The position numbers and the translations under genes were made by a program. 63,799 nt of DNA from a virus (lineage: Duplodnaviria; Caudoviricetes): IMG/VR virus record IMGVR_UViG_3300042460_000659, positions 1-63,799 of that record; one strand, written 5' to 3'. Shown here one piece after another: positions 1 through 47,829 of the stretch (the stretch's first letter is position 1; each line of letters begins with the position of its first letter). Below the pieces are notes generated by a model. The model was not told the DNA's origin. It did no database searches and was given only the letters and a program-made list of their open reading frames with translations.

Positions 1-1315
1 TGCTCGATCATCGCCAGCGTGGTGCCGACCGGGGCGTCAGACCGGCCCTCTCCCACCTGAAGCTCAGACGTCCCGCCGACACGCATGCCGGTCGTGGCGA
101 TGTTCTCGCACAGCGCCATCAGTGCGCCAGACGGTTCCTTGTACGGCAGCGGCATGATGGCGTCGCCGATCCGCTGGCCACCAGTTTTCACCAGCGCTGC
201 GCCACCCGGCGGGACGCGGAACACGTTTGTGTTCTGGCGCGCTCCGCTGTCCGACATCAGGAAGCCGGGGAAGTTGGCGAACATACCAGCGTCGAGCAGT
301 TCGCGCCACGCAGCGGTCACGGCGTTGGTCGTGTTGCCAAGGATGTGCAGAAGTCCGATGTCGTAGAACCCCAGACCCGGAACGAACGTGTACTTGACGA
401 ACGTCGTGCGCGCTTCCGGCAGGGCTTCGGTGTCCTCATCGTAGTTCCGTACGATGCTCAGGATTTCACGCGACGAGATGTCGATGGTCACCCGGTACGG
501 GATTTCCAGACCGGACGGCTTGCCCTTGTGCTTGTGTTCGTAGCCCTTGATGTCCAGTTCGCAGTAGACCTCATAGATTTCGCGGTCACGGTCATCCGGG
601 TTCGAAACGGTGACCGAGATGCCCTGCTGCGAAGCCTTGGCTTCCTGCGCGGCGTCGACCGTGACCTCCTTGGGCGTGGAAAGCTCCACGTCGCGATAGA
701 CGCCCAGTATCTGCAGGCGCTTCACGGTCGACGGCTTCAGGGTAACCCGGTGCGTGACGCGCAGAGCGCTGGACAGGTCCGTGGCCTTGTTGTTCACGAT
801 CAGGTCATCGGCATCCACGCTGTCGGACGCGGGGCGGTTGCGCAGCGGACAGAAGTAAATCTTCTTGAACGCGGTGCCGCCGAAGCCCAGCAGCAGAAGC
901 ATGCGGTCTGTGTCCGGGTAGTACTCGCGCGCCGTCGACGTCAGGTAGTGGTTCATGTCCTTCTCAAGGGCATCCGCCAGCTGATCACGCTCCAGCGTCG
1001 TGCCGTTGGCGTCGTCCCTGATCTTGACCGGACCGTCTGTCGGCAGAAGCTCAGACCGGGCGTTGGCTTGGAAGCGCAGCACGGCTTCCTGCAGCAGCGG
1101 GTGCCGGACCTTGGACATGCCTTCGACCGGTGCGCCGTCGGACGCGCCCTGCACGCCGGGAAGCTCGATCTTGAGGCCCAGCAGCTTGATGCCCTGCGCC
1201 CTGTCGTCGATCCACTCGTTGCGGCTCTCCAGATCGTCCTGAACGCCTCGCAGCAGGTCTTCGGTGATGCTGCTCAGTTCGTCGTCATCGATGTCGTCGG
1301 CGAGGTTGTCGAACC
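1..1315. repeat. Terminal direct repeat, left copy (matches 62485-63799, offset 62,484)
   Basis: The first 1315 nt are colinear with the last 1315 nt, with scattered substitutions; shadow ORFs 64..309 and 62548..62793 correspond. Confidence 0.97.
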
Positions 1316-1538
1316 AGCCCGACGGACCCTTCTTGCCTTCGGCATCTTCGATGGGCTTGCCGTCCAGCGACACGGTGATGGACCCATCGCCATGGTCGAT
1401 CCGCAGGACGGCACCATCGGTATCGAACTCAGGTACGTCGATGTCTTCGTCGGCGTTCTCGATGGTGACGTCCATGGGGGCGATGGCAGCCTCTTCCGGC
1501 TCCTCTTGCAGTCGGATGTTTGGTGACAGGCCGGACAT
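1..1538 (-). CDS. Portal protein, 5' part (runs off the window start; continues in the 61707-63799 copy)
   Basis: ATG at 1538 gives MSGLSPNIRLQEE...WFDNLADDIDDDEL...HPLLQEAVLRFQANARSELLPTDGPVK, the same protein as the 61707 ORF. Confidence 0.88.
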   Translation of the reverse strand, partial: MSGLSPNIRLQEEPEEAAIAPMDVTIENADEDIDVPEFDTDGAVLRIDHGDGSITVSLDGKPIEDAEGKKGPSGWFDNLADDIDDDELSSITEDLLRGVQDDLESRNEWIDDRAQGIKLLGLKIELPGVQGASDGAPVEGMSKVRHPLLQEAVLRFQANARSELLPTDGPVKIRDDANGTTLERDQLADALEKDMNHYLTSTAREYYPDTDRMLLLLGFGGTAFKKIYFCPLRNRPASDSVDADDLIVNNKATDLSSALRVTHRVTLKPSTVKRLQILGVYRDVELSTPKEVTVDAAQEAKASQQGISVTVSNPDDRDREIYEVYCELDIKGYEHKHKGKPSGLEIPYRVTIDISSREILSIVRNYDEDTEALPEARTTFVKYTFVPGLGFYDIGLLHILGNTTNAVTAAWRELLDAGMFANFPGFLMSDSGARQNTNVFRVPPGGAALVKTGGQRIGDAIMPLPYKEPSGALMALCENIATTGMRVGGTSELQVGEGRSDAPVGTTLAMIE

Positions 1539-1555
1539 GCTGATCCCTCAAGGTA

Positions 1556-1588
1556 ATGGCTGCCCCCGACCATATCAGAGGCAGCCAC
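1556..1588 (-). terminator. Stem-loop between array 1 and the portal start (possible terminator or processing site)
   Basis: TGGCTGCC...GGCAGCCA inverted repeat; no strong U tract. Confidence 0.4.
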
Positions 1589-1612
1589 CCTTGTCATGTA
1601 GGTCTATTACTG

Positions 1613-1851
1613 GACCGCCTAGCCGTACCGGGCCAGACCATGCCTTACCTAACCGAAACCGACCTAAACCGCCGTACCACGGCATACCAGTCCCCGCCGT
1701 ACCTCAACCGACCTTGACCGCCTTGCCGCGCCGCGCCCCGCCATACCAGACCTAGCCGTACCGCACCCAGACCGCCTTGCCTTGCCGAACCATGCCATAC
1801 CGAACCAGACCATACACAACCCGACCCTGACCGCCGTACCTTGACCGTGCC
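1613..1851 (-). ncRNA. GGY-NN pentamer array 1 (candidate guide-RNA array, 4 full units)
   Basis: Minus strand reads GGCGGTC-NN-(GGY-NN)n. Delimiters on the + strand start at 1613, 1667, 1716, 1770 and 1829 (spacings 54, 49, 54, 59, all 5n+4). Intergenic. Confidence 0.8.
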
Positions 1852-1855
1852 AGCC

Positions 1856-2341
1856 CTAAGCGGACTTGGCTTTTTCAGCGTGCGCTGCGATGGCCTCGAT
1901 GACCTGCAGGTCGTAATCCGAAAAGACGCTGGCGTAGCGATCCAGCCAGCTGCGCTGCGAACGTGCGCCCTGCCGCTGAAGCTCCGCGACGTGTTCCGCG
2001 TCCTCCGGATCGAACCTCTCGTAGCCGCCACCGGCGCGGCGACCCGCCATTGGCGAGACGTAGGCCGGGTACTCATGCGTGATGATCTGCACCACGTTGG
2101 CTTCGGTGACTGTGCTGACATTGGAAACAATCCGCAGCCCGCTGGCCATCTGACGCGCAAGACCAATCCGGTACTCCCGCGCCGCAGCCTCGTCGTCCTT
2201 GGCGAAGAACCACGAATATGCCTGATGGTCAGGCCTCTCTGACAGCCAGTCAACGAACCCAGAGGCGCTGAACATGTTCTCGCCGCTGTCTTGCAGGTAG
2301 CCGTCGATGATCTTCTGACGGTCCCGTTTTGTAAAAGCCAT
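1856..2341 (-). CDS. Conserved phage protein, partner of the RAMP-like gene (about 161 aa; alternative start 2347)
   Basis: ORF with a GGGAGA SD; motif WFFAKDDEAAAREYRIGLARQ; lies between the two arrays. Confidence 0.8.
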   Translation of the reverse strand: MAFTKRDRQKIIDGYLQDSGENMFSASGFVDWLSERPDHQAYSWFFAKDDEAAAREYRIGLARQMASGLRIVSNVSTVTEANVVQIITHEYPAYVSPMAGRRAGGGYERFDPEDAEHVAELQRQGARSQRSWLDRYASVFSDYDLQVIEAIAAHAEKAKSA

Positions 2342-2360
2342 TCTCATTCTCCCTAATTTT

Positions 2361-2675
2361 GACCGCCCCGCCGCGCCCTACCCTGCCTTGACCAACCTGC
2401 CATGACCGCCTTGCCGGACCCGACCTAGCCCCAACAAGCCATGCCTCGCCTTGACCGTCCCAACAAGCCATGCCATGCCGCGCCCCGCCTTGACCGCCCA
2501 GCCGCGCCCCGCCTCACCCGTCCGTACCTTACCTTGACCGCCATGCCGGACCTTTCCGGACCTGAACTAGCCCCGCCAAGCCGTTCCACACCTTGACCGC
2601 CTATCCCTGCCTCACCACGCCAGACCCCGACATACCACGCCGTCCGCGCCCCGCCTCGACCGCCTTGACCGTGGG
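2361..2675 (-). ncRNA. GGY-NN pentamer array 2 (candidate guide-RNA array, about 6 units)
   Basis: GACCGCC/GACCGTC delimiters on the + strand at 2361, 2404, 2453, 2492, 2536, 2595 and 2658, with NN-RCC pentamers between them; intergenic. Confidence 0.8.
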
Positions 2676-2703
2676 CAGCAGGTTTCCCCACTGCCCGGTT
2701 GCT

Positions 2704-3462
2704 TTAAGCTGCGCGACGCTGACGCTCGTCCATCAGCATGTCCATCAGTTCGAAGGTTTCATCATCCGCGTACTCTGGATGGGACAGGGCAGCCTCCTGA
2801 ACGGCGCGACCCTCCTGCTTGACCTCCGCGATATAGTCCGCCCACTCGCCGCCATCAGGACCAGCCACGGCGAAGCATCCATAGCTGCCACGGCCCTTCT
2901 CTTGGCGGAAGTCGCCGATGCCGACGATCACTCCAGCGTTGGACAGGAGCGACACGATGGAGTGCGTCGACAGCGTGGGCGTGACGAAAGCGATATCGAC
3001 TTCGGCCACCCAACGGGGCAGGAATGCACGGGTCCGGATGTCGGGCGTCTTGTTCATGTCGGCGCTGCGGACAACGTCCATCTTCAGGTACGGCTTGCCC
3101 CACATGCGGATGCGCTGCTCAGGCAGGAAGATCAGGCGCTGAACGCTGCTTTTGGTGACGCCTGCGGTCTCAAGCGCAGCAGTAGCCATCGCGCCCTTCA
3201 CGCCGGGTGCCGGGAATGCCAGAGCCGTCTCGCCGGTCGCCATGCGGTACACGCTGTCGCGGTATTCTTCTTCGGGGTCGTGCTTGAGTTCTTTCCGTTC
3301 GGCAGCGGTCTTCTTGCCACCACCAACCAGCAGGGACCGCTTGGCTTTGGCGCTCATGGCGTTGAAGTAAAACCCCGTCGTGCCGATCAGGGTGAGGGTG
3401 ACGCGCCCCTGCTTGAGGGCGTCGATGTGCAGCGTTCCCGCTTCTGCTTTCTTGGTAACCAT
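2704..3462 (-). CDS. Cas7/RAMP-like RNA-binding protein (252 aa)
   Basis: N-terminal strand VTLTLIGTTG, FPAPGVKGAM motif and C-terminal Gly-rich loop GIGDFRQEKGRGSYGCF are typical of RAMP/Cas7-group proteins; GGAGA SD upstream of ATG 3462. Confidence 0.7.
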   Translation of the reverse strand: MVTKKAEAGTLHIDALKQGRVTLTLIGTTGFYFNAMSAKAKRSLLVGGGKKTAAERKELKHDPEEEYRDSVYRMATGETALAFPAPGVKGAMATAALETAGVTKSSVQRLIFLPEQRIRMWGKPYLKMDVVRSADMNKTPDIRTRAFLPRWVAEVDIAFVTPTLSTHSIVSLLSNAGVIVGIGDFRQEKGRGSYGCFAVAGPDGGEWADYIAEVKQEGRAVQEAALSHPEYADDETFELMDMLMDERQRRAA

Positions 3463-3556
3463 AGTTCCAGTCTCCATGTCATGTGAGGCTGGCAAACTGG
3501 CGCTGCTGTGATAAACACAGCGCAAGACCATATGCCGCTAGCCCGGTTTTGGTTCA

Positions 3557-3626
3557 GACACGGCGGGCGGTCCTACCCGCTTCGCCGTGTCGGTCCTTTA
3601 TTACATATACCACTTTTCCATGCAAC
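3557..3626 (-). promoter_or_regulatory. Candidate promoter and leader hairpin for the RAMP-like operon
   Basis: AT-rich TTGCAT...TAATAA on the minus strand (about 3598-3625), followed by hairpin GACACGGCG...CGCCGTGTC (3557-3591). Confidence 0.4.
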
Positions 3627-4001
3627 CTATTTTTCCAGAAGAAGGTATGCACCGGCGAGATAATTGATAGCGCCAAGGATTTCCCGCTTGGCGGCCTCAG
3701 GCTCCATCCGCGACGCCTCCTGCGCCTTCTTCATGGCCTGTCCAAGGCAGAAACCCGGACCCACCATGCGCCCGATCTCCAGCATGGGCTGTTGATCGAA
3801 CGGTTTACCATTGCCGTGCCGCTCAGCGCCCTTGCCCTGCAGCGCCTGATCCAATGCCAGATCGAGGACGCCTTGCAGGGTGAGTTGCTGGTTGTCGGCC
3901 ACAGGCGTGAAGCACCGGAAGCCAAGGCATTTGTCCGAGTGTTCGTCGCCCATCTTGGCACTGCACACCGGGCATGCCGCCGAGATCATCCACTTAGCCA
4001 T
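3627..4001 (-). CDS. Conserved hypothetical phage protein
   Basis: 124 aa ORF overlapping dcd; motif GKGAERHGNGKPF...GQAMKKAQE...ILGAINYLA. Confidence 0.75.
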   Translation of the reverse strand: MAKWMISAACPVCSAKMGDEHSDKCLGFRCFTPVADNQQLTLQGVLDLALDQALQGKGAERHGNGKPFDQQPMLEIGRMVGPGFCLGQAMKKAQEASRMEPEAAKREILGAINYLAGAYLLLEK

Positions 4002-8394: not shown

Positions 8395-8642
8395 GCTCCC
8401 TTGGTGAATTCACGGTGGCGGCGGATGGCCCATTTCTGGACATCATCCTCGTCGCACAGGACATAGGCGACGGTCTTGAGGACGTTGGCGAAGCGCGTCT
8501 GGTTGTCGCCGACGTAGATCAGGTGCGGCAGGTCGGGCCGGTAGTTGGTCTTGTCCTGACGGACGCGATACTCAAACGTGTGGCCGAACTCGGCCTCCAC
8601 GAAGGAACCTGCGAGGTTCTGATAGTCGAGCGCGTATGCCAT
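8391..8642 (-). CDS. Hypothetical protein (83 aa)
   Basis: GGGAGA SD, upstream promoter, ATGA overlap with SprT. Confidence 0.7.
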   Translation of the reverse strand: MAYALDYQNLAGSFVEAEFGHTFEYRVRQDKTNYRPDLPHLIYVGDNQTRFANVLKTVAYVLCDEDDVQKWAIRRHREFTKGA

Positions 8643-8669
8643 GGCGTGTCTCCCTGCTGCCTGCCCGAT

Positions 8670-11879: not shown

Positions 11880-12215
11880 ATATACGTTTGTAATCTACTA
11901 AACATTTGAAATCTAACAGAAATCCGAGTTGTTAGTGTACTTAGGTAGATATTCGACAGATAGACACAGATAGAGACCCAGAGAGGGACAGACAAAGGGA
12001 AAAAACAATATATATATATATAAATATATATATATATACATATATATATCCCTTATTTCATTGATGTTTGTGTCCAGATGTCTCTCCCTATTTTGAACTA
12101 TTCTGTCTATCTATTTCTGTCTCTATTCGACTATCTACCTATCTACTTTTCTACTCGAAATTATCGTTCCGCTTCAATGACTTAGGTGAATATCCACTAA
12201 CTATCGACCCGTGCT
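11880..12215. other. Candidate replication origin (AT-rich, TA tract, inverted AGATAG repeats)
   Basis: Non-coding; about 40-nt (TA)n tract at 12008-12049, AGATAG/TAGAT repeats on the left and CTATCT/ATCTA repeats on the right. Confidence 0.55.
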
Positions 12216-30695: not shown

Positions 30696-33600
30696 TCAAG
30701 TCCCCCTGATAAACCAACGCGCCAGTATCGGAGACGCATCGATGTTCTGTTGCTTCAGAAGACCGGTGAGGATTTCCTGAGCCGTCGCCTGATCCAAAGC
30801 CCCTGAGTTCACATCCTTCATGAACTCCATGACGATCTCACCGCGCGTGCGCCCATTGTTCATGGGTGTCGTGTCGGCGGCCATTTTGTAGAGTTCAGAA
30901 AGCTGGCTTTTTTCTTGCTGCAGGGTCTCTGTGTACTCCCTGTTGAAGCCTTCGGCCAAGGCGTACGGGTTGTAACCTGCAGGCAACCGGCTCTGCAGGA
31001 AGTTGAAATACTGCGCTCTGTCGATATCCATTTGGTGGGACATCTGCAGGGCGGACGTTATCTCAGCAGCGGCATCTTCAGTCATCTGAAGTGTCGGGTT
31101 CGTTTCAACAAACCTCTCAAAAACGGATGCTGCACGCTGCTGCTCTGGCGTCATCGCGCCAGCACGCATTATGCCCAGCTTGTCAAGGATTTGCTGGCTG
31201 GTGATGGTGCCATTGATCGGCGTGATTTCTTCTATCCCAGCAGTTGTAAGGACAGCATTCAGCGGCCTCAGGATGTTTTCAAGGATCGTCGTTTGACCCT
31301 GAAGGCTTCCAAAATCTCCAGCCGCAATCGCCCCCGCCACGGTCTTGGCAAGCTCGTTGCTGGAAGCCTTTCCGTTCATCGCGGACATTCCGAGATTGGA
31401 TGCTTCCTGTACCAGCCTCGCAGCCTCCGCCGTATTTGTTCCGTACGCACCAAAGCCAACATCGCTCGAAACATACTCGTTCTGCTGGTCGATGATGTTC
31501 CGAGAGCTATCGCTGAAGCGTACACCGGTCGGTGCTTCGGTGGAGCCACCAACCGTAATGCCGCTCGACGCAGCCTGATCCCGCGCAGCCTCCATGATCC
31601 TTTGATCAAGCTGTGGGTCGCCCGTGGAGTAGGCCTGAGGGCTGCGAAGGTAGTCTTGCAGCGTGACAGCTGGCCTTCCATCCCCAAAGTTGACAAGGAC
31701 GCGGCCATTTGAAAACTCGATGAAGCGATCTTTGTCAGCCAAGACCTGCGTTTGGCGCTCTTGGGCTTTTGTCAGACCGATATCAGCAGCCTGCTTCTCA
31801 AGGCCAGCATAGGTTCCAGCAAAGCCCTGCAGGCCGAGGCCCAGAGACGGCAGGAAGAACTGGCTGGGCGAAGACAGCATCCCGCCGATGCCAGAAGCAA
31901 GGGAGAGAAGCGCGTTCTTGTTCAGGGTTCCGTCTTCGTTGTAGAACATTTTTCCAACAGTGGTGCGGTCCTCGTATGGCTTGTCCGGCGTTAGCATGCC
32001 GCGACCAAGGCCACCCTCTTGGGGTTCGCGCTGCCCTCTTGTGCTGAGGGATGCGCCAGCGCCCACACCGCCGCTCGGGAAGTACCGCCCTTCAGGCGTG
32101 GAGATCGGAGCACCAGTAATTGCGTCCATAGGCACACCGGCAAAGCTGGCAAGCTCTTCCATGCGGTCGCCGCGCCACTGAGCGATGCCGTAGGTTCCGT
32201 TTCCACCGCCAAGTGTGTTTCTGGCGTTGGGGTCCATGTGTGCATAGCTCTCGACCATCAGGCGGCCAGTCGCACCAGACGCTTGGATGGGGTCCATGCC
32301 GTTGTCGATGAAGTGCTGGTACGCCTGCTGAACGTTCGGCGGGAACCCAGACAGGTCTCCATTTTGCGCTGCGCTGTAGATATCCTCAGCGTTCGCAACG
32401 GCGATGTCGTTTCCTTGACCACCTGACTTTTCGTAGATTTCATCAAAAGCAATGGCAGCCTGACCGGGGGTTGCGTATTTTTGTGCAGGATATGCGTTGT
32501 ATTCGGGCTTCTGAAGCTCGTACGTGATGAAGTCCAGCTGCTTGCCATAAGGAACAACCGGTCCCATCTTGGGTTGCGGCGCGACAACACCAGTGGGTGC
32601 GCGCTCAACGGGCTGTTCGACAGCCGCAACACCCAAGCCTTCCGGACGCGCCACGGGGCGCGGGGACGACGCAAGGGGGGACATCGGGAGCGGCGTACCA
32701 GCGGCCTGCCGAAGCGGGAATGGCGTGCCCGCCGCTTCCCTGAGTGGGAACGGGGTTCCAGCGGCCTGCAGGGGCTGCGGACCGATCAGGCCTCTTTCTG
32801 GGAAGGGCGTGCCAGCAGCCTGTCGGGGTTCCAGATAGAACGGTGTCCCGGCTGCCTGCCTGATCGGCTCAAATGGCGTCCCAGCTGCAGGTATGAGGCC
32901 CGTTCCAGAGAGCATTCTCCCTTCAGCATTCCCTACGACGCCAGCACCGCTGAACATCGGAGGTTCGTAACCACGGCGACCAGAAATAGGTTCAAAGAGG
33001 CGCAGGCGTTGAGCCTCAGCCTCTGCGTCCTGCACGGCCTTGTACTCATCGGTCAGAATTTCTTGAGGGTTCGCATACTGGTTCCTCTCAAGAATTCTTT
33101 TGGCAGCTTCGTCGTAAGCTGACCTTGCAGCCGGTACGTCAACGTTTTCTGCCTGCTGTCTCAGGCGCTCTTGGGAAGCATCGATGTCTCTGCGCGCAGC
33201 GCTCAGTTCGTCCCCTTGCGAAATTTCTATGCCGCCAGCAGGGTTTCTGTATGCCCTGCGGTCATCATAGAGATATTTTTTCGTGTCTGGGTCGCGAACC
33301 ATTCCAGTTTCTTGGCTGTACTGAAGTGGATTTACCGTGGGCGCATCCTGCCAATCGCTCTTCATTGCGACGCCTGATGGGTAAGAAATCGGAGCGCCAA
33401 TTCTGTCAGCTTCTGGAACGCGCCCAGAAGGAAGAAGCCCTGTGGCGGCGCGGGGTTCCATTTCTTTGAGGCGACGCATGCGCTCCTCGTCGCTCATCGG
33501 AGACCCGCCATCAGCATATCCTGCAGCGCCGCCATACCGGAAGGGCATGGGGATACCTGCGATGGCAAGGCCGACCTTGGCGAGAGCTGCGATGTCACCA

Positions 33601-35141
33601 GCCGGGCTGGAGCCGCCGCCACCGCCGCCCGGAGGAGCGTCCAGCCTTGGCTTGTCGCTCTTGTCTTGGCTGGCCAGCGTGTCGGTCAGGTAGCTCTTCT
33701 CGCTGTTGGGGGCCACGCCGCCTTGCTGTGGCTTGAGGTATTGCGCACCGACGGCACCGCCATAGGCCTGCGCGGACACGCCGCGTCCAGTTTCTCCCCC
33801 TCCAACAGCTTCCTTCTTGCCTTCAGCGCCCCACTTGTCTTTTGCCCAGTTCCACGTGCCCTCAATCTCCTGAGCGCTCTCTCCAAGGCTTGCCAGAGAC
33901 GCCAGCTGCTGGGCCATGGATTTCTGTGCATTGGTTGCATAGGCCGGGTCGGCCACGATCAGTTCACCAACCGGAAGATTGGCCTGCGGCACGTACCCAC
34001 CAAAGTTCGGCTGGGAGTTTGCTGGAGACCCGTACGGACCAGCAACGCCGCCATCAGCGAATGCCTCACCTGAGCGCTGCGGAGAGACGCCGCCACCCAT
34101 GCTGTTTTTCTCGGTGGCCTTTTCGTAGTCGACGGTCTTGTAACCGGTGGGGTGGACGCCGACAGCTTCCGGTTTGACCTGCTCCACCTCGTCGGCCATG
34201 AAGCCAACGTGGGTCTGCTCTTTCTCGTCGCCCTTGTACTTGAAGCTGTAGATCGGCAGGCCGTCGTCGGTCTTGCCAATGCGTTTGACGTCGTGCTTCA
34301 GGCGGCGATCCGAGAAGAACGGTGCGGGCTGCGTGGTGGCCGTGGTCGAGCCGGAGAGAGCGCCTGTGCCGGTGGCGATGTTCGCGAGGAACTGGGCCAC
34401 TTGGAACGGGTAGCCCTGCTCCTGCATGAACTGGTTGACCAGCGCCGTCTTGCCAGCCTGTTCGGTCTGTTGCTCCAGCGTACCAGCGTTGATCTGGGCC
34501 TCAGCACCAGCAAGGCCAGCTTGCTGTGCCGTGGTGCCCAGACCGGCCAGCTGCGCGCCACCGGCGGTCAGGCGGGCGAGGTTGGCCTGATCTGCGCTGA
34601 GGTTCACGCCCTGCTGCTGCTGAGCGGTGCCAACGGCCTGCGTGTAGCCTTGATTGTAGATGTCTGCCATGGTCTTGCCGTAAGCAAGGTTCTGCTGTTG
34701 CGACAGGTTTGCTGCAGCGATGCCAGCCCTGTCCCCACCGAAGGCACCAGAACTGATGGCAGTGCCGAGATTTCCGGACTGCGCGCGCTCGTTCTCCTGC
34801 GCTATCATAGCGCTGGTCGTGTCGGCCACGTTCTGGATGTACGGCGACATGTACTTGCTGATGTCGAGTTCGCCAGCGTTGGCTTCATCCATACCGGCGA
34901 CGGTGGCACCGGTGGCTGCATTGATATACGGCTGGTAAGCGCCAGCAGCGGCGTTGACGTTGTTGATGCCCGCCCGCTGCTGTTCGTTGATCTGTGCGAC
35001 AAAATCGCTGGCTTCAGTGCCATACTTCTGGAACGGCTTGGCCGCCACTTCCTCAGCCCGAGTGTTGACCGCGTTGTAGCGCGCCATCACCTCAGGTGGG
35101 ATTTGAACCTGAGAAGTGGTCGTTGAAGTTTTCTTACCCAC
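30696..35141 (-). CDS. Large ejection protein with S74-like chaperone domain and phage tail-lysozyme domain (1481 aa)
   Basis: Q/A-rich N-terminus with SSGAFGGDRAG; FFSDRRLKHDVKRIG...GFMADEVE...VDY; MVES...YGIAQWRGDR. Confidence 0.8.
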   Translation of the reverse strand: MGKKTSTTTSQVQIPPEVMARYNAVNTRAEEVAAKPFQKYGTEASDFVAQINEQQRAGINNVNAAAGAYQPYINAATGATVAGMDEANAGELDISKYMSPYIQNVADTTSAMIAQENERAQSGNLGTAISSGAFGGDRAGIAAANLSQQQNLAYGKTMADIYNQGYTQAVGTAQQQQGVNLSADQANLARLTAGGAQLAGLGTTAQQAGLAGAEAQINAGTLEQQTEQAGKTALVNQFMQEQGYPFQVAQFLANIATGTGALSGSTTATTQPAPFFSDRRLKHDVKRIGKTDDGLPIYSFKYKGDEKEQTHVGFMADEVEQVKPEAVGVHPTGYKTVDYEKATEKNSMGGGVSPQRSGEAFADGGVAGPYGSPANSQPNFGGYVPQANLPVGELIVADPAYATNAQKSMAQQLASLASLGESAQEIEGTWNWAKDKWGAEGKKEAVGGGETGRGVSAQAYGGAVGAQYLKPQQGGVAPNSEKSYLTDTLASQDKSDKPRLDAPPGGGGGGSSPAGDIAALAKVGLAIAGIPMPFRYGGAAGYADGGSPMSDEERMRRLKEMEPRAATGLLPSGRVPEADRIGAPISYPSGVAMKSDWQDAPTVNPLQYSQETGMVRDPDTKKYLYDDRRAYRNPAGGIEISQGDELSAARRDIDASQERLRQQAENVDVPAARSAYDEAAKRILERNQYANPQEILTDEYKAVQDAEAEAQRLRLFEPISGRRGYEPPMFSGAGVVGNAEGRMLSGTGLIPAAGTPFEPIRQAAGTPFYLEPRQAAGTPFPERGLIGPQPLQAAGTPFPLREAAGTPFPLRQAAGTPLPMSPLASSPRPVARPEGLGVAAVEQPVERAPTGVVAPQPKMGPVVPYGKQLDFITYELQKPEYNAYPAQKYATPGQAAIAFDEIYEKSGGQGNDIAVANAEDIYSAAQNGDLSGFPPNVQQAYQHFIDNGMDPIQASGATGRLMVESYAHMDPNARNTLGGGNGTYGIAQWRGDRMEELASFAGVPMDAITGAPISTPEGRYFPSGGVGAGASLSTRGQREPQEGGLGRGMLTPDKPYEDRTTVGKMFYNEDGTLNKNALLSLASGIGGMLSSPSQFFLPSLGLGLQGFAGTYAGLEKQAADIGLTKAQERQTQVLADKDRFIEFSNGRVLVNFGDGRPAVTLQDYLRSPQAYSTGDPQLDQRIMEAARDQAASSGITVGGSTEAPTGVRFSDSSRNIIDQQNEYVSSDVGFGAYGTNTAEAARLVQEASNLGMSAMNGKASSNELAKTVAGAIAAGDFGSLQGQTTILENILRPLNAVLTTAGIEEITPINGTITSQQILDKLGIMRAGAMTPEQQRAASVFERFVETNPTLQMTEDAAAEITSALQMSHQMDIDRAQYFNFLQSRLPAGYNPYALAEGFNREYTETLQQEKSQLSELYKMAADTTPMNNGRTRGEIVMEFMKDVNSGALDQATAQEILTGLLKQQNIDASPILARWFIRGT

Positions 35142-44793: not shown

Positions 44794-47700
44794 TTAGGCT
44801 TGTGCTTCTTTCCAGTTCAGTCGGGCGAGGATCGTGGAGGATGTCGCCGAGAGCGGGATGGCCACCACGTAGAGGATGTCCGGGCCGTCCGGGTAGAAGC
44901 CGGACTGGGTGGTCGGAACGGTGTTGTTCGCGCCCCCACCAAGGATCGAGTTGCCCAGATCGCGCACTGGAGCAAGGTCGAACGTGGTGACGCCAGTCGG
45001 GTTGGTGTAACCGGCGTACACGCTCTCGCCGCCGGTGACGGTGACAGCGTTGACGTTCAGGGCGACCTGAGCGAGGGACGAGGTGATACCGCCAGCCTGC
45101 TGGACCGGTGCCACGAACCCACCAGAGAACGCGCCGCCTGAGAAGCCGTTCAGCACAAGGTTGATCAGGTATCCGGTGCCGGTAGTGTAGAAGCCGATAG
45201 AGTTCAGCGCCAGCTGCATCCGGTTGATGACCTCACGGGCACCAAGGATGCCGATGGTGTTGTTGTCCACGGACGGTGCCACCCGGATCGCCAAAATGAC
45301 GCGCGGCGTTACGGCAGTGGTCGTGATCGGCGTGGTCATCCCGTAGTTGAACACCAGAGACTTATCGTCGTCGTACCGGCCATCCATGATCGTGGAGGAA
45401 CCCCAGTGCGACAGGGATGCCAGCGTGTCGGGCGAGGAGAACTCGACCAAGGTCGGTGCCGTCGCGGAGTAGGTGAACGTCTGGGCAGCCACGTTTCCAC
45501 CAACCTGAGCACGCGCAGCGACGGTGAAGGTGGTCGCCGTCTTGCTGGAGTAGGAAATCTGCTCGATGGTCCCGGTAGCGCCGGGGTTCGAAATCCGCAG
45601 GACACCCACCGGCGCGAAGCCTTCCGTGCTGGCGACGCTGATCACGGTTCCAGCGCCACCCGTGCCAAGCGTGGCCGTAAGCTGGGTGTAGGCGCTGATG
45701 CCGTTGCTCTCGTAGTGCGCAGGAAGGTTCCCGCTGCGCATGTACGCTTCGTACTGGATGTTGTTGTTCGTGAACTGGTGGACGTAGGCGATGTTTCCGT
45801 TCGTCGTACGGAGACCAAACCGAGCAAAACCTGCGCCATACCAAGAGTACTCGACGTAAAGCATCTGCATGCGGGTCAGATCGAGGTTGTACCCAGACAC
45901 GCCAGTTCCATCCAGCGGGTCATCCCAGCGGGTGCGGGGCACGCGGACGTCGGTCGTTTTGGAGATGACCGCGTTGGCAATCGTCGTCCCCCGATACTCC
46001 GGAGAGATGATCAGGGAGGTGTCCGAAGCGATGGAAAGCACGCGATACGACTGGCCACGGATGACGATGAAGTCGCCGACCGCCAGCTGGCGGCTGAACT
46101 TTGTCCCAACACCGGTGATTGCGGCAGAGCCAAGCGTCGCGGTGATCGAGCCTTCAAGCTGCAGGACGCTGTTCCGCCACACGGCGTAGAGCATCTGCCC
46201 GTCATATTCGAAGAACAGGCCGTTCTGCTGGTCAAAGAAGCCCACCCGGTTCGAAGAGCCATACCAGTTGGTCGGGCTGACCCGGATTGGGAAGCCCTGC
46301 GCCGGGCTGATAGCTGGAACGCTGAACATGGTGTAGGTCAGCGTGTTGGGGGTAGGCGTCGTGGCGACAGCGAACGTGCCATTGTAGGACGCCTGATCCG
46401 CGCCAGAGACACGGATTATCGCACCCGGTGCCACGTTGTGGGCGAAGCGGGTGGTCACAGTCGCCGTGAAGCCGGATGCCGTGACGTCGCTCACAAACAG
46501 GGCCGGGCACACGGTCGTACCGGTCGAGAACTGGATTGCCTTACCAGACTGATAGCGGAAGTACCGGCGCGTTTGCCGGATCATTTGCGAGTTCGGCTGC
46601 GCAGAACCAGCTGTGAAGGCCACACCACCGTCGAAGGGACGGCTCTCTACCGATCCGGACGTCCGGGCGAAGAGGCTGGTTTGCCCCGCAGCGTTGCTAA
46701 GCGTCCCAAACGGGACGGTCAGAGTAGAAAAGGCAAACGTATTTGCCGTCGGCGTCGAAGATACAACCCAAGCGCCGTTCGGAGTATCGACGACGTTTGT
46801 AGACGTCGAAGACAATGCCACGGGCGCACCGATTGTACCTACGGTCTGCGAGGCGCTCACCGTGTAGTTGGTGCCCGTCATCGCAATGGAGCCCACGGTC
46901 TGCGAGGCACTGACAGTAAAGGTCGGGCTTGCGCCGGATACGATGTACGTACCCGCCGTTACGCCAACGCCCGCAAGCTGCATCCCGATGACGGGGATGG
47001 TGCCTGCGGTGTAGGTGAGCGTCGTGCCTGTGATGCTTCCGGTGAAGCTAGAGACGTTGGTAGCCGTGATAACGGTTCCCGCTGTAACCCCAGCCCCAGT
47101 CACGGAGTAAGTTGAACCCGCGCGAAGGTTAAGCCCAGCCAGAGGTACAGCGTTCAGGCTCATTGTGGTGCCGCTGATCCAGCCGAGAAGGTTCAACATC
47201 TGGGTGGACGTGACGCCAGTCACGTAGATAAGCGACCCAGCGGACAGGCCATGGGCGCTAGTAGTCGTGACGTTAACCGTGGTTCCTGAGTTAGTATAGG
47301 CATTCGTGCTGGTCAGCGCGATGCCGCACTGGGAGTACAGATACCCCAGATACACGTAGGTCCGGTCGGCGCTCAGCTGGTTGCCGACAGCCACAATACC
47401 CGCAGCGGTGTAGGTAACGCTGACGTTGGTGGAGACGGCCTGCACATAATACCAGCCGTTGGCGTTCGGATCGATGGCGTTCTGGACGAAGATCGGAGAG
47501 CCGATAGAGAAGCCGGTGGTCGGGTTCATGGAGACCACAACAGTCCGCGTACCGTTTCCAGTCACGGCGGTCACGGCGGACGGTGCCTGCGGGATGTAGT
47601 AAAGGCTCTGCCGGTTGTTTGCCATGCCGATGCTTTCCCACTTCGTCGGCTGCTGGCCGTATTCGAAGTCGGTGTCGATCAGGGACTGCGGCTCAGACAC

Positions 47701-47829
47701 GCGCATCTTACCGACGGGGTCTTGGGCGATGGGCGCTGGAGCAATCAGGGCAGCGCCACCGGCTCCCGAGCCACCCACCCCGCCAAGAGGCAGAGATTGG
47801 TTGGTATTGAGGTCAACAAGCCAAGTCAT
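44794..47829 (-). CDS. Large beta-rich virion protein (1011 aa)
   Basis: Thr/Gly/Ser-rich; DTDFEYG, RQTRRYFRYQSGK, YSWYGAG motifs. Confidence 0.75.
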   Translation of the reverse strand: MTWLVDLNTNQSLPLGGVGGSGAGGAALIAPAPIAQDPVGKMRVSEPQSLIDTDFEYGQQPTKWESIGMANNRQSLYYIPQAPSAVTAVTGNGTRTVVVSMNPTTGFSIGSPIFVQNAIDPNANGWYYVQAVSTNVSVTYTAAGIVAVGNQLSADRTYVYLGYLYSQCGIALTSTNAYTNSGTTVNVTTTSAHGLSAGSLIYVTGVTSTQMLNLLGWISGTTMSLNAVPLAGLNLRAGSTYSVTGAGVTAGTVITATNVSSFTGSITGTTLTYTAGTIPVIGMQLAGVGVTAGTYIVSGASPTFTVSASQTVGSIAMTGTNYTVSASQTVGTIGAPVALSSTSTNVVDTPNGAWVVSSTPTANTFAFSTLTVPFGTLSNAAGQTSLFARTSGSVESRPFDGGVAFTAGSAQPNSQMIRQTRRYFRYQSGKAIQFSTGTTVCPALFVSDVTASGFTATVTTRFAHNVAPGAIIRVSGADQASYNGTFAVATTPTPNTLTYTMFSVPAISPAQGFPIRVSPTNWYGSSNRVGFFDQQNGLFFEYDGQMLYAVWRNSVLQLEGSITATLGSAAITGVGTKFSRQLAVGDFIVIRGQSYRVLSIASDTSLIISPEYRGTTIANAVISKTTDVRVPRTRWDDPLDGTGVSGYNLDLTRMQMLYVEYSWYGAGFARFGLRTTNGNIAYVHQFTNNNIQYEAYMRSGNLPAHYESNGISAYTQLTATLGTGGAGTVISVASTEGFAPVGVLRISNPGATGTIEQISYSSKTATTFTVAARAQVGGNVAAQTFTYSATAPTLVEFSSPDTLASLSHWGSSTIMDGRYDDDKSLVFNYGMTTPITTTAVTPRVILAIRVAPSVDNNTIGILGAREVINRMQLALNSIGFYTTGTGYLINLVLNGFSGGAFSGGFVAPVQQAGGITSSLAQVALNVNAVTVTGGESVYAGYTNPTGVTTFDLAPVRDLGNSILGGGANNTVPTTQSGFYPDGPDILYVVAIPLSATSSTILARLNWKEAQA

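What the first reader, a model, noticed from the sequence alone, without database searches (positions are those of the whole stretch)
1613..1851. Array 1: four perfectly phased units with distinct dinucleotide codes
Delimiter spacings are 59, 54, 49 and 54 (all 5n+4). Minus-strand NN strings, 5'->3': AG-CG-TG-AT-CT-TC-AT-AT-TC-AA-AA; TG-GC-AC-TA-CT-AT-GG-GC-GC-AA; AA-CG-GA-AC-GG-CT-AT-GT-AC; TA-CG-TC-TA-AA-AT-CT-CC-AC-TA. The triplet is mostly GGT/GGC, with rare GTT, GGA, TGT or GCC that keep the phase. Constant phase with high NN diversity is unlike a slippage microsatellite. The 18-22 informative nt per unit are comparable to a spacer seed plus body. If every third target base is skipped, in-frame targets would be blind to synonymous escape mutations (speculative).
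Basis: partly seen in the sequence, partly recalled or inferred. Interest (0 to 1): 0.85.

Follow-up and report, generated by a model that had tools for sequence, protein, structure and literature searches.

The report
Phage VIPR guide-RNA array (staggered type)
The five-base rhythm is a bank of four guide RNAs of a VIPR system, a CRISPR-like RNA-guided DNA silencer of phages first described in 2026, so it is a genuine new example of a known kind rather than a new kind.

Summary
On the minus strand, 1613-1851 reads (GGY-NN)n in four units separated by GGCGGTC, with spacings 59, 54, 49 and 54. The NN strings are exactly as listed.

It is one of two vrRNA arrays of a VIPR system (bioRxiv 10.64898/2026.04.26.720920). 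The neighbouring 252-aa gene (2707-3462, minus) is a Vipr/RAMP protein. Its profile hits the solved SUSP1 Vipr (E 1.5e-5; hhalign 95.8%). Its model matches Csm3/Cas7.

The same vipr, array, accessory gene, array module occurs in 94 IMG/VR contigs. Of 456 unique junction spacings there, 405 are 5n+4. This fits the paper's tail-less "staggered" arrays.

The published one-base-skip rule holds in this clade. Two relatives' guides match terminase genes perfectly. One Array 2 guide of this phage matches a conserved motif of a P22 gp10-like gene in at least 120 viral contigs. All scored sites are in codon phase.

No target was found for the four Array 1 guides. No RNA data exist.

The 2,046-bp cassette is missing from co-occurring variant contigs.

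This scan has already noted VIPR on other DNA (347 notes, at least 196 genomes).

Verdict: new member of a known kind.

The parts
1613..1851 (-). vrRNA Array 1. It has a short leader (CAC-GGTCAA-GGTAC-GGCG) and then four abutting guide units: U1 1772-1831 (11 NN), U2 1718-1772 (10 NN), U3 1669-1718 (9 NN), U4 1615-1669 (10 NN). Neighbouring units share one G at each GGCG|GTC junction.
   Evidence: Pentamer parse. Phased pattern versus control. No more RNA structure than shuffles, z = +0.87. No Rfam family.
1856..2347 (-). Accessory (vap-like) gene, 161-163 aa, lying between the two arrays. Predicted as helices, then a beta-hairpin, then helices. Function unknown.
   Evidence: A homolog lies next to the arrays in 67 of 94 related loci. 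No Pfam, PADLOC, PDB or BFVD match. No similarity to the SUSP1 gene next to vipr, which I took to be vap1. AF2 pLDDT 82.
2361..2675 (-). vrRNA Array 2, about 7 units and some short or degenerate ones. It includes guide A2f (about 2411-2452) with a predicted natural target, and its variant A2c (about 2543-2594).
Evidence: Parse. A2f target.
2676..2700 (-). GGGCAG...CTGCCC hairpin between the vipr stop codon and Array 2.
   Evidence: Read directly from the sequence. Function not tested.
2704..3462 (-). vipr gene: a stand-alone RAMP/Cas7-like protein of 252 aa (start MVTKK). It carries the G-loop GIGDFRQEKGRGSYG.
   Evidence: Profile versus PDB 36pp_D 'SUSP1 Vipr protein', E 1.5e-5. hhalign versus SUSP1 YP_009199429.1: 95.8%, E 6.8e-9. 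AF2 pLDDT 85. Foldseek: 37 PDB matches at E <= 0.001, and every one listed is a CRISPR RAMP-containing effector complex (Csm, Cmr, type VII, Cas7-11/gRAMP, III-D). phrog_4652.
3463..3625 (-). Leader of the cassette. It holds a 9-bp hairpin (3557-3591) and the palindrome CTGTGATAAACACAG (3505-3519) upstream of vipr.
   Evidence: Read directly from the sequence. No sigma-70-like site was called here. Function not tested.
1580..3625 (-). The whole VIPR cassette (2,046 bp), an insertion/deletion between the portal gene and ORF124.
   Evidence: Contigs in 2 of 4 laid lake-water runs join 1579 to 3626 with 6 other letters between. The closest GenBank relative, MW202675.1, has one small gene there instead.

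Best explanation
Array 1 is a guide-RNA (vrRNA) array of a phage-borne VIPR system.

Inferred from the published SUSP1 mechanism: the array is transcribed on the minus strand together with vipr, Array 2 and the accessory gene. One Vipr protomer binds each pentamer. It sequesters the GGY bases and presents the two NN bases. The filament then reads double-stranded DNA two bases at a time, skipping every third base, and silences transcription of the bound gene.

Shown here by sequence: Array 1 holds four guides of 9-11 dinucleotides. The units abut directly and overlap by one G at a GGCG|GTC junction, so the spacing is 5k-1. They lack the roughly 40-60-nt structured 3' tail of the SUSP1 type. This fits the 'staggered' arrays named in the first VIPR paper.

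Likely role, inferred: fighting co-infecting phages by shutting off essential late genes. Guides of this clade match terminase and head-completion genes of other phage groups at codon positions 1-2. What the four Array 1 guides themselves target is not known.
For: (1) Scaffold and guide pattern. Across 269 unique junction contexts from 94 related viral loci plus the window, G-G-Y is near-invariant at period 5 and NN is near-uniform in base use.

(2) The Vipr protein next door. The A1 profile hits solved SUSP1 Vipr 36pp_D at E 1.5e-5 across the thumb and G-loop. hhalign gives 95.8%, E 6.8e-9. The residues that the cryo-EM paper reports contacting GGY (R138, D177, W178, R179; 10.64898/2026.04.26.720927, section 5 read) align with R145, D184, F185 and R186. 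Three of these are invariant and F185 is nearly invariant in 32 homologs. The fold model matches Csm3/Cas7 RAMPs.

(3) Conserved module. A vipr homolog occurs in 73 and an accessory-gene homolog in 67 of 94 array-bearing loci. Wherever a gene was called, the arrays lie on its coding strand.

(4) The one-base-skip rule holds in this clade. Among 273 guides scanned under skips of 0-3, the only perfect matches outside arrays were at skip 1. One was 20/20 (L049 guide) and one 18/18 (L086 guide), about 40 nt apart in the same TerL gene. The 20-base pattern has at least 120 IMG/VR hits. In all loci then held, 127 of 127 sites were in frame and encode AI[ED]TAQGAH[DE], in 85 distinct 30-mers.

(5) This phage's own guide A2f matches at least 120 IMG/VR contigs. 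Of the scored sites, 119 of 119 are in frame on the opposite strand and encode FGRYP[KN][IM]S. This lies near the N-terminus of a phrog_578 / P22 gp10-like protein that this phage lacks.

(6) No self-target above shuffled controls.

(7) The array RNA is no more structured than shuffles, as expected for a protein-coated guide.
Against: No target was found for any of the four Array 1 guides. Exact gapped-pattern scans of IMG/VR gave 0 hits for all four. A bacterial-genome scan gave 0 hits for U1. It gave 4 hits for U4, none in a long reading frame. A metagenome scan for U2 gave 6 hits; 4 lie in one cellular-looking enzyme gene and look like chance. Local scans did not exceed shuffled guides.

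Two of these scans (U2, U3) included the first NN after GTC, which may not pair, so they may have missed targets.

The A2f pattern has only 16 fixed bases. From the other scans I estimate about 3 chance hits for such a pattern. Most A2f target loci have about 39% G+C, against 60% for this phage. Many of them probably infect other hosts.

Transcription, processing and Vipr binding of these RNAs are not shown; no RNA run holds this DNA (tried). The accessory protein matches nothing, including the SUSP1 gene I took to be vap1. The VIPR type (I-VII) could not be assigned because the supplements are closed.
Confidence: 0.92

Rival explanations
1. It is a VIPR array, but its guides are aimed at host or other cellular genes (for example defence genes) or at a satellite, not at competing phages. 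Alternatively some units are decayed or decoy guides without a live target.
For: None of the four Array 1 guides has a match in IMG/VR. Earlier notes of this scan report VIPR guides matching host defence genes in other genomes (unchecked by me). The third VIPR paper describes decoy-directed vrRNAs (abstract). Unit 3 has three off-consensus triplets.
Against: Exact scans of 185,579 species' genomes found nothing for U1 and only 4 non-coding-frame hits for U4. The guides of this clade with identified targets hit phage structural or packaging genes. Only exact matches could be searched, so this rival is weakly tested.
Confidence: 0.25
2. It is a phased binding site on RNA for some other oligomeric protein, not a programmable guide. 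Examples are a TRAP-like ring that reads triplets spaced by two bases, or a protein sponge.
For: A triplet-plus-two-base spacing with 9-11 repeats per unit resembles the TRAP binding site of Bacillus (recalled, not tested).
Against: Unit length varies from about 6 to 13 pentamers across 456 units, which does not fit a ring of fixed size. The conserved neighbour is a RAMP with the Vipr GGY-binding residues. NN positions carry matches to foreign genes in codon phase, which a pure scaffold would not. No TRAP-like family was found in the flanking genes.
Confidence: 0.03
3. It is a non-functional or purely structural repeat: a slippage satellite, a G-quadruplex-forming tract (GG every 5 nt), or a recombination or packaging signal on DNA.
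For: GG-N3 repeats could in principle form two-tier G-quadruplexes (general knowledge, not tested). The cassette is an indel between strains.
Against: Slippage would homogenise NN, yet NN is near-uniform in composition while GGY is fixed. The pyrimidine at position 3 is not needed for a quadruplex but is required by the Vipr pocket. The arrays lie on the coding strand of vipr wherever it was called in the 94 loci. Tandem Repeats Finder sees only short weak rows here.
Confidence: 0.02

Closest known systems
VIPR 'staggered' vrRNA arrays (bioRxiv 10.64898/2026.04.26.720920, Results text and legend of fig. S18; figure not seen)
   Same: GGY/NN pentamer guides next to a Vipr gene and an accessory gene. 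Units follow one another without a spacer. The legend says neighbouring vrRNAs derive from positions that overlap by 1 nt. That predicts the 5k-1 (= 5n+4) spacing seen here.
   Different: I could not see the figure or the supplementary tables. Whether the published examples use the same GGCGGUC junction, belong to the same Vipr clade or have the same accessory gene is therefore unknown. The paper says that ribozyme-interspersed and single-vrRNA systems were confirmed by small-RNA sequencing. It does not say this of staggered arrays.
Type II VIPR of Escherichia phage SUSP1 (Vipr YP_009199429.1, vap1, four vrRNAs; PDB 36pp)
   Same: RAMP protein with a conserved thumb arginine and a G-loop GD(W/F)R. 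GGY-NN repeats, 9-16 per guide there and 9-11 here. One-base-skip targeting at codon wobble positions. Phage-borne two-gene locus. Targets are competing mobile elements.
   Different: Each SUSP1 vrRNA has its own leader and a conserved pseudoknot tail of about 40-60 nt. Here the units abut with a 7-nt junction and no tail. Vipr here has 252 aa against 195. The detectable similarity covers only 53 columns. The accessory protein is unrelated in sequence to the SUSP1 gene next to vipr, which I took to be vap1. The gene order is vipr-array-vap-array rather than array-vipr-vap-array. Predicted targets are late genes of other phages rather than a satellite recombinase.
Class 1 CRISPR backbone proteins (Csm3/Cmr4/Cas7) on crRNA
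   Same: Same RAMP fold. Every PDB match listed at E <= 0.001 is a CRISPR RAMP-containing effector complex, best E 1.3e-5. A helical protein coat on a guide RNA, with a thumb that breaks pairing periodically.
   Different: Period 5 with three guide bases hidden, not period 6 with one base flipped. No CRISPR repeat-spacer array. No cas1, cas2 or other cas genes in the cassette. The guides are hard-wired in the phage genome.
Gordonia phage Ecliptus gene 19 locus (OP820472.1), the closest homolog in a cultured phage
   Same: Gene 19 is about 33% identical to this Vipr. It is followed by an intergenic stretch of about 230 nt made of GGY-NN pentamers, and then by a small gene.
   Different: Different junction sequence (GGCAGG-like), actinobacterial host, siphovirus context. 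Annotated only as a hypothetical protein.

Membership tests
VIPR system | Vipr protein: a small stand-alone RAMP (RRM core, glycine-rich loop, thumb) outside any CRISPR-Cas locus | tested here: met
   Profile hit to solved SUSP1 Vipr 36pp_D, E 1.5e-5. hhalign 95.8%. The AF2 model (pLDDT 85) matches Csm3/Cas7 chains, best E 1.3e-5. No cas or defence family in the four nearest flanking ORFs (vipr, vap, ORF124, ORF164; PADLOC) or in ten flanking ORFs (Pfam).
VIPR system | Residues that hold the GGY bases (SUSP1 R138 thumb; D177, W178, R179 G-loop) | tested here: met
   They align with R145, D184, F185 and R186. R145, D184 and R186 are invariant and F185 is 90% or more conserved in 32 homologs. 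W to F keeps an aromatic side chain. H17 and K33 equivalents were not mapped.
VIPR system | vrRNA: tandem YNNGG / GGY-NN pentamers (4 or more units) with conserved GGY and hypervariable NN, in the intergenic DNA beside vipr | tested here: met
   Units here have 9-11 NN. The paper gives 9-16 for the clades it inspected.
VIPR system | A vipr-accessory (vap) gene in the same operon | tested here: inconclusive
   A conserved 161-aa neighbour is present in 67 of 94 loci. It matches none of Pfam, PADLOC, PDB or BFVD, nor the SUSP1 gene I took to be vap1. vap2-6 sequences are in supplements I could not open.
VIPR system | Guides match natural dsDNA targets under the one-base-skip rule, with the skip at the codon wobble position | tested here: met
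   Met for the clade and for Array 2 guide A2f. Not met for the four Array 1 guides, for which no target was found.
VIPR system | No self-targeting at 80% or more NN identity | tested here: met
   The best self match of the four Array 1 guides is 65-73%, not above 200 shuffles each. The short 14-base guide A2e reaches 12/14, which 40 of 200 shuffles also reach.
VIPR system | vrRNAs are expressed as discrete small RNAs and co-purify with Vipr | not testable with these tools
   No RNA run holds this DNA. This needs an experiment.
VIPR staggered-array architecture | Neighbouring vrRNAs overlap by 1 nt, without tail, ribozyme or spacer between them | tested here: met
   Spacings are 5k-1 here (59, 54, 49, 54) and in 405 of 456 unique units of the clade. 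No Rfam hammerhead or other family. No structure above shuffles. The actual RNA ends are not known.
VIPR type II (SUSP1-like) | Conserved structured 3' tail (pseudoknot) after each repeat tract, and a vap1 accessory gene | tested here: not met
   No tail (compare the SUSP1 array). The accessory protein is unrelated to the SUSP1 gene I took to be vap1.
CRISPR-Cas | Repeat-spacer array with an adaptation module (cas1/cas2) and further cas genes | tested here: not met
   The 2,046-bp cassette holds two genes only. PADLOC found nothing. The repeat logic has period 5, not repeat-spacer.

The most novel reading that the evidence does not exclude
In this clade the 7-nt junction GGCGGUC, a one-base slip of the pentamer register, may by itself end one Vipr filament and start the next. 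A single late transcript would then be partitioned into many tail-less guides without a pseudoknot, ribozyme or Cas6-like nuclease. The unclassifiable 161-aa accessory protein might act as the measuring or cutting factor. With this system, a virulent-looking 64-kb lake phage would silence head-completion and terminase genes of unrelated co-infecting phages. That would be a broader 'phage versus phage' use than the helper-satellite conflict shown for SUSP1.
Probability: 0.3. Interest if true: 0.55.

Novelty: new member of a known kind. Interest (0 to 1): 0.35.

Why it matters
VIPR was published only in 2026, and experiments so far concern the tailed type II system of coliphage SUSP1. This locus and its 94 IMG/VR relatives form a well-sampled family of the tail-less, staggered architecture. 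The family has a fixed junction (GGCGGUC), hundreds of natural guides and an accessory protein of unknown fold. It also supplies independent, purely computational support for the one-base-skip, wobble-blind targeting rule outside Enterobacteria. It points to essential late genes of rival phages (terminase large subunit, P22 gp10-like head-completion protein) as natural targets. In addition, the cassette is present in some co-occurring lake strains and absent from others, as expected for an accessory weapon. For the scan it is not a new kind of system.

Tried and rejected
Ideas considered and dropped.
- TRAP-like ring binding site. Unit lengths vary and the neighbour is a RAMP.
- G-quadruplex or rut-site ideas. 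They do not explain the conserved pyrimidine or the Vipr link.
- Coding repeat. The periodicity is 5, not 3.
- Iterons, partition sites or primase sites. Nothing supports them.

Searches for the nature of the genes.
- Pfam, PHROGs and PADLOC on the flanking genes gave only phrog_4652 (unknown function) for Vipr.
- The ESM Atlas gave only unnamed viral clusters.
- The accessory protein had no match at E <= 0.001 in PDB or BFVD fold searches and none by PDB profile. Weak low-probability hits to winged-helix-containing chains are not evidence.

Target searches that led nowhere.
- IMG/VR exact gapped patterns gave 0 hits for the U1 core, U2, U4 and U3.
- The A2c core gave 1 hit, in a non-coding AT-rich stretch, with 1 of 4 further positions matching. 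This is a chance level.
- The metagenome scan for U2 gave 6 hits. Four lie in one 447-aa ORF that I read, by eye only, as a RuBisCO-like enzyme. I judged them chance.
- The genome scan for U1 gave 0 hits. The scan for U4 gave 4 hits in Bacteroidota MAGs, none in a long frame.
- Local scans of the window's guides against 0.84 Mb and 1.13 Mb of fetched loci showed nothing above shuffles, except A2f by construction.
- The scans included the first NN after GTC. At the A2f target sites that NN matched only 15 of 119 times, so those two scans may have been too strict.

RNA evidence: no RNA holder listed. Laid DNA contigs break inside the arrays in all four runs (table 8), which says nothing either way.

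The VIPR type could not be assigned. I first called the phage N4-like. Its largest ORFs are 1,639, 1,481 and 1,011 aa, so I dropped that label.
Full report
OBSERVATION. The stretch 1613-1851 lies between two minus-strand genes: the portal gene (3..1538, Pfam SU10_portal) and a 161-163-aa ORF (1856..2347). Read on the minus strand, it is a run of five-base steps, GGY followed by two variable bases. The run is interrupted four times by GGCGGTC (once GGCGGTT). The junctions start at 1835, 1776, 1722, 1673 and 1619, which gives spacings of 59, 54, 49 and 54, all 5n+4. A pattern of seven phased RCC-NN steps occurs 8 times on the + strand of this genome, 0 times on the other strand and 0 times for the backwards control. 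Only this stretch and a second one at about 2361-2675 carry the rhythm.

CONTEXT. The window is a complete 63,799-base IMG/VR virus record of 59.7% G+C. At least half of the sampled words of 1500-3600 are held by 24 lake-water metagenome runs, 19 of which may be the source. Its closest GenBank relative is an uncultured 61-kb phage, MW202675.1. In that relative the portal gene is followed by a single small gene and then the dCTP deaminase gene. In the window the same interval holds Array 1, the 161-aa gene, Array 2, a 252-aa gene (2707-3462) and a leader. Laying contigs of four lake runs on 1400-3700 showed a contig in two of them that joins 1579 directly to 3626, with six other letters between. 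The flanks of these contigs differ at 5-15 positions. The cassette 1580-3625 (2,046 bp) is therefore an accessory insertion that is present in some co-occurring strains and absent from others.

A WIDESPREAD MODULE. An exact scan of IMG/VR for the junction followed by six phased steps found 94 viral contigs, many with several matches. In these loci a homolog of the 252-aa protein (40-100% identity) is present in 73, and a homolog of the 161-aa protein in 67. Many of the loci are short contig ends. In most loci that hold both genes, the order on the RNA-sense strand is 252-aa gene, array, 161-aa gene, array. In a minority the two genes abut and the arrays lie outside them. Array lengths range from about 40 to about 730 nt. 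A logo of 269 unique junction contexts shows G-G-Y nearly fixed every five bases on both sides of GGCGGTC. The two bases in between use all four letters almost evenly. Of 456 unique junction-to-junction spacings of 75 nt or less, 405 are 4 mod 5, mostly 39-64 nt.

IDENTIFICATION. Pfam, PADLOC and the ESM Atlas gave no name. PHROGs gave phrog_4652, of unknown function. A profile of 32 homologs (A1) hit one solved structure, 36pp_D 'SUSP1 Vipr protein', at E 1.5e-5 over the G-loop region. A literature search for that name found three 2026 preprints on VIPR, the Viral Interference Programmable Repeat systems. I read the following parts:
- First preprint, 10.64898/2026.04.26.720920: Results, Discussion and four Methods sections.
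- Cryo-EM preprint, 10.64898/2026.04.26.720927: sections 5 and 6.
- Third preprint, 10.64898/2026.10.15.759431: abstract, one Methods section and some passages.

They describe a small stand-alone RAMP protein (Vipr), an accessory gene (vap) and vrRNAs built of 9-16 YNNGG repeats. One Vipr protomer binds each repeat, hides the GGY bases and presents the NN bases. The filament recognises double-stranded DNA with one target base skipped after every two. The skipped base usually falls on the codon wobble position. Binding represses transcription. Natural targets are competing phages and satellites. Seven types exist. Besides the tailed type II arrays of SUSP1, the text names 'staggered arrays with overlapping vrRNAs'. 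The legend of fig. S18 says these derive from positions overlapping by 1 nt.

MEMBERSHIP TESTS. The AF2 model of the 252-aa protein (pLDDT 85) gave 37 PDB matches at E <= 0.001. Every one listed is a CRISPR RAMP-containing effector complex (Csm, Cmr, type VII, Cas7-11/gRAMP, III-D), best E 1.3e-5. Against the SUSP1 Vipr sequence fetched from GenBank, hhalign gives 95.8% probability, E 6.8e-9, over 53 columns. The SUSP1 residues reported to grip the GGY bases (R138, D177, W178, R179) align with R145, D184, F185 and R186. Three of these are invariant and F185 is nearly so in the 32 homologs.

The arrays meet the vrRNA definition. The 5k-1 spacing is what a one-base overlap of 5k-nt units gives: the last pentamer of a unit is GGCGG, and its final G is the first base of the next unit's GTC-NN. 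The array RNA folds no better than shuffles (z = +0.87) and matches no Rfam family. It therefore lacks the pseudoknot tail of type II. The SUSP1 array, read for comparison, has a leader and a roughly 40-nt tail between repeat tracts.

The 161-aa protein is a candidate vap, but it matches nothing. Sequence and fold searches were blank. It is unrelated to the SUSP1 gene next to vipr, which I took to be vap1. I could not assign a VIPR type because the supplements are closed.

DOES THE TARGETING RULE HOLD HERE? I called 587 guide runs in the window and the related loci. Of these, 371 were unique with 7 or more NN. I scanned the 273 guides with 8-15 NN against 0.84 Mb of fetched sequence, with arrays masked, under skips of 0, 1, 2 and 3, and with shuffled guides. 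The overall distributions barely differ from shuffles. One guide, from locus L049, matched 20 of 20 positions at skip 1, in locus L023. The expectation for such a match is about 4e-4 over all guides (my arithmetic). The other high scores were array-to-array matches at skip 3.

The site lies in a terminase large subunit gene (PF03354 and PF20441). The paired bases fall on codon positions 1-2. In all loci then held, 127 of 127 sites were in frame in long ORFs (median 511 aa) and encode AI[ED]TAQGAH[DE]. There are 85 distinct 30-mers, with three or four different bases at most skipped positions and two at the Gln and His wobbles. A second guide, from L086, matched 18 of 18 positions about 40 nt upstream in the same gene. 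The published rule therefore operates in this tail-less clade, and terminase genes of another phage group are among its targets.

THIS PHAGE'S OWN GUIDES. No guide matches the phage's own genome above shuffles. Array 2 guide A2f (8 of its 9 NN used, 16 fixed bases) has at least 120 exact IMG/VR hits. Of the scored sites, 119 of 119 are in frame on the opposite strand and encode FGRYP[KN][IM]S. This motif lies about 20 residues from the N-terminus of a 470-575-aa protein. There are 87 distinct 23-mers among the 120 sites re-extracted. The protein belongs to phrog_578 'head closure Hc3'. Its distant cultured relatives are annotated 'packaged DNA stabilization protein'; I recall this as the P22 gp10 type. 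The window encodes no homolog.

The other five window patterns, with 18 fixed bases each, gave 0, 1, 0, 0 and 0 hits. From this I estimate about 3 chance hits for a 16-base pattern. The A2f result is meaningful because it strikes one highly conserved, in-phase site, but I could not run a shuffled control. Most target loci are about 39% G+C and only two exceed 50%. Many of them must infect other hosts.

Guide A2c is a variant of A2f. The two share 15 of 18 NN bases, while 5 of 8 scaffold triplets differ. A2c would read the same motif with three amino-acid changes.

ARRAY 1 GUIDES. No target was found for any of the four:
- IMG/VR gave 0 hits for each.
- The metagenome scan for U2 gave 6 chance-like hits.
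- The bacterial-genome scan gave 0 hits for U1 and 4 non-coding-frame hits for U4.
- Local scans showed nothing above shuffles.

Only exact matches could be searched. Two of the patterns included the first NN after GTC, which did not pair at the A2f sites (15 of 119). The targets of Array 1 remain open.

MECHANISM, SHOWN AND INFERRED. Shown by sequence and structure comparison:
- a Vipr-family RAMP with the GGY-binding residues;
- two arrays with the vrRNA grammar on its coding strand;
- a conserved accessory gene;
- a tail-less 5k-1 unit architecture;
- clade guides that match foreign phage genes under the one-base-skip, wobble-phase rule;
- no self-targets;
- a presence/absence polymorphism of the cassette.

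Inferred from the SUSP1 work:
- transcription of the arrays with the operon;
- cutting or partition at the junctions;
- one Vipr per pentamer;
- triplex-type binding and transcriptional silencing of the target.

Not known: the RNA ends, who processes them, the role of the accessory protein, the host, and the targets of Array 1.

NOVELTY. The class is in print (preprints of April to October 2026). This scan has already noted it on other DNA: 347 notes in at least 196 genomes, several of them followed up as staggered VIPR arrays. This locus is a new member of a known kind. Its added value is threefold. It defines a large uncultured family with a fixed GGCGGUC junction. It gives independent support for the targeting rule. 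It supplies candidate natural targets (terminase, gp10-like protein) and an unclassified accessory protein.

Noticed in passing
window 1579/3626 (cassette 1580-3625): In 2 of 4 laid lake-water runs, a contig of a related strain (5-15 differences in the flanks) joins 1579 to 3626 with six other letters between. That strain lacks the whole VIPR cassette. The joint sits right after the stop codon of ORF124 and 41 nt before the portal start codon.
   Followed up: partly
L049 (guide at about 8595-8644) and L086 (guide near 3533 on the reverse-complement strand of the locus, counted from that strand's start); targets in L023:298-326 and L116:2343-2368: Two guides of related VIPR loci match a terminase large subunit gene perfectly under the one-base-skip rule, about 40 nt apart. 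The first target motif (AI[ED]TAQGAH[DE]) occurs in at least 120 IMG/VR contigs, some of which carry VIPR cassettes themselves (L023, L028, L034).
   Followed up: yes
L350 (Gordonia phage Ecliptus, OP820472.1) 2480-3340: A cultured actinophage has a Vipr homolog (gene 19, about 33% identity, annotated hypothetical). It is followed by an intergenic run of about 230 nt of GGY-NN pentamers, then a small gene, all inserted between the tail chaperone and tape-measure genes. It is a possible laboratory model for staggered arrays. About 25 Mycobacterium phages also carry homologs.
   Followed up: partly
window 3505-3519 and 3557-3591: Upstream of vipr lie a 15-bp palindrome (CTGTGATAAACACAG, operator-like) and a 9-bp-stem hairpin without a U-tract. 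No sigma-70-like promoter was called in this leader.
   Followed up: no
window 1839-1849 and 2664-2674: Both arrays begin, just after the stop codon of the preceding gene, with the same CACGGTCAAGG leader and a very short first unit (spacing 14 and 9). Short spacings of 9-14 recur 12 times among 456 units of the clade. This may be a start signal for loading or processing.
   Followed up: partly
window 12007-12049: A run of about 21 AT dinucleotides in a 60% G+C genome (Tandem Repeats Finder score 70-79).
   Followed up: no
window 30696-35141, 44794-47829, 56791-61710: The largest ORFs have 1,481, 1,011 and 1,639 aa. There is no ORF of about 3,500 aa, the size of a virion RNA polymerase. So despite dCTP-deaminase DNA hits to N4-like phages, the phage is probably not a canonical N4-like virus.
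   Followed up: partly
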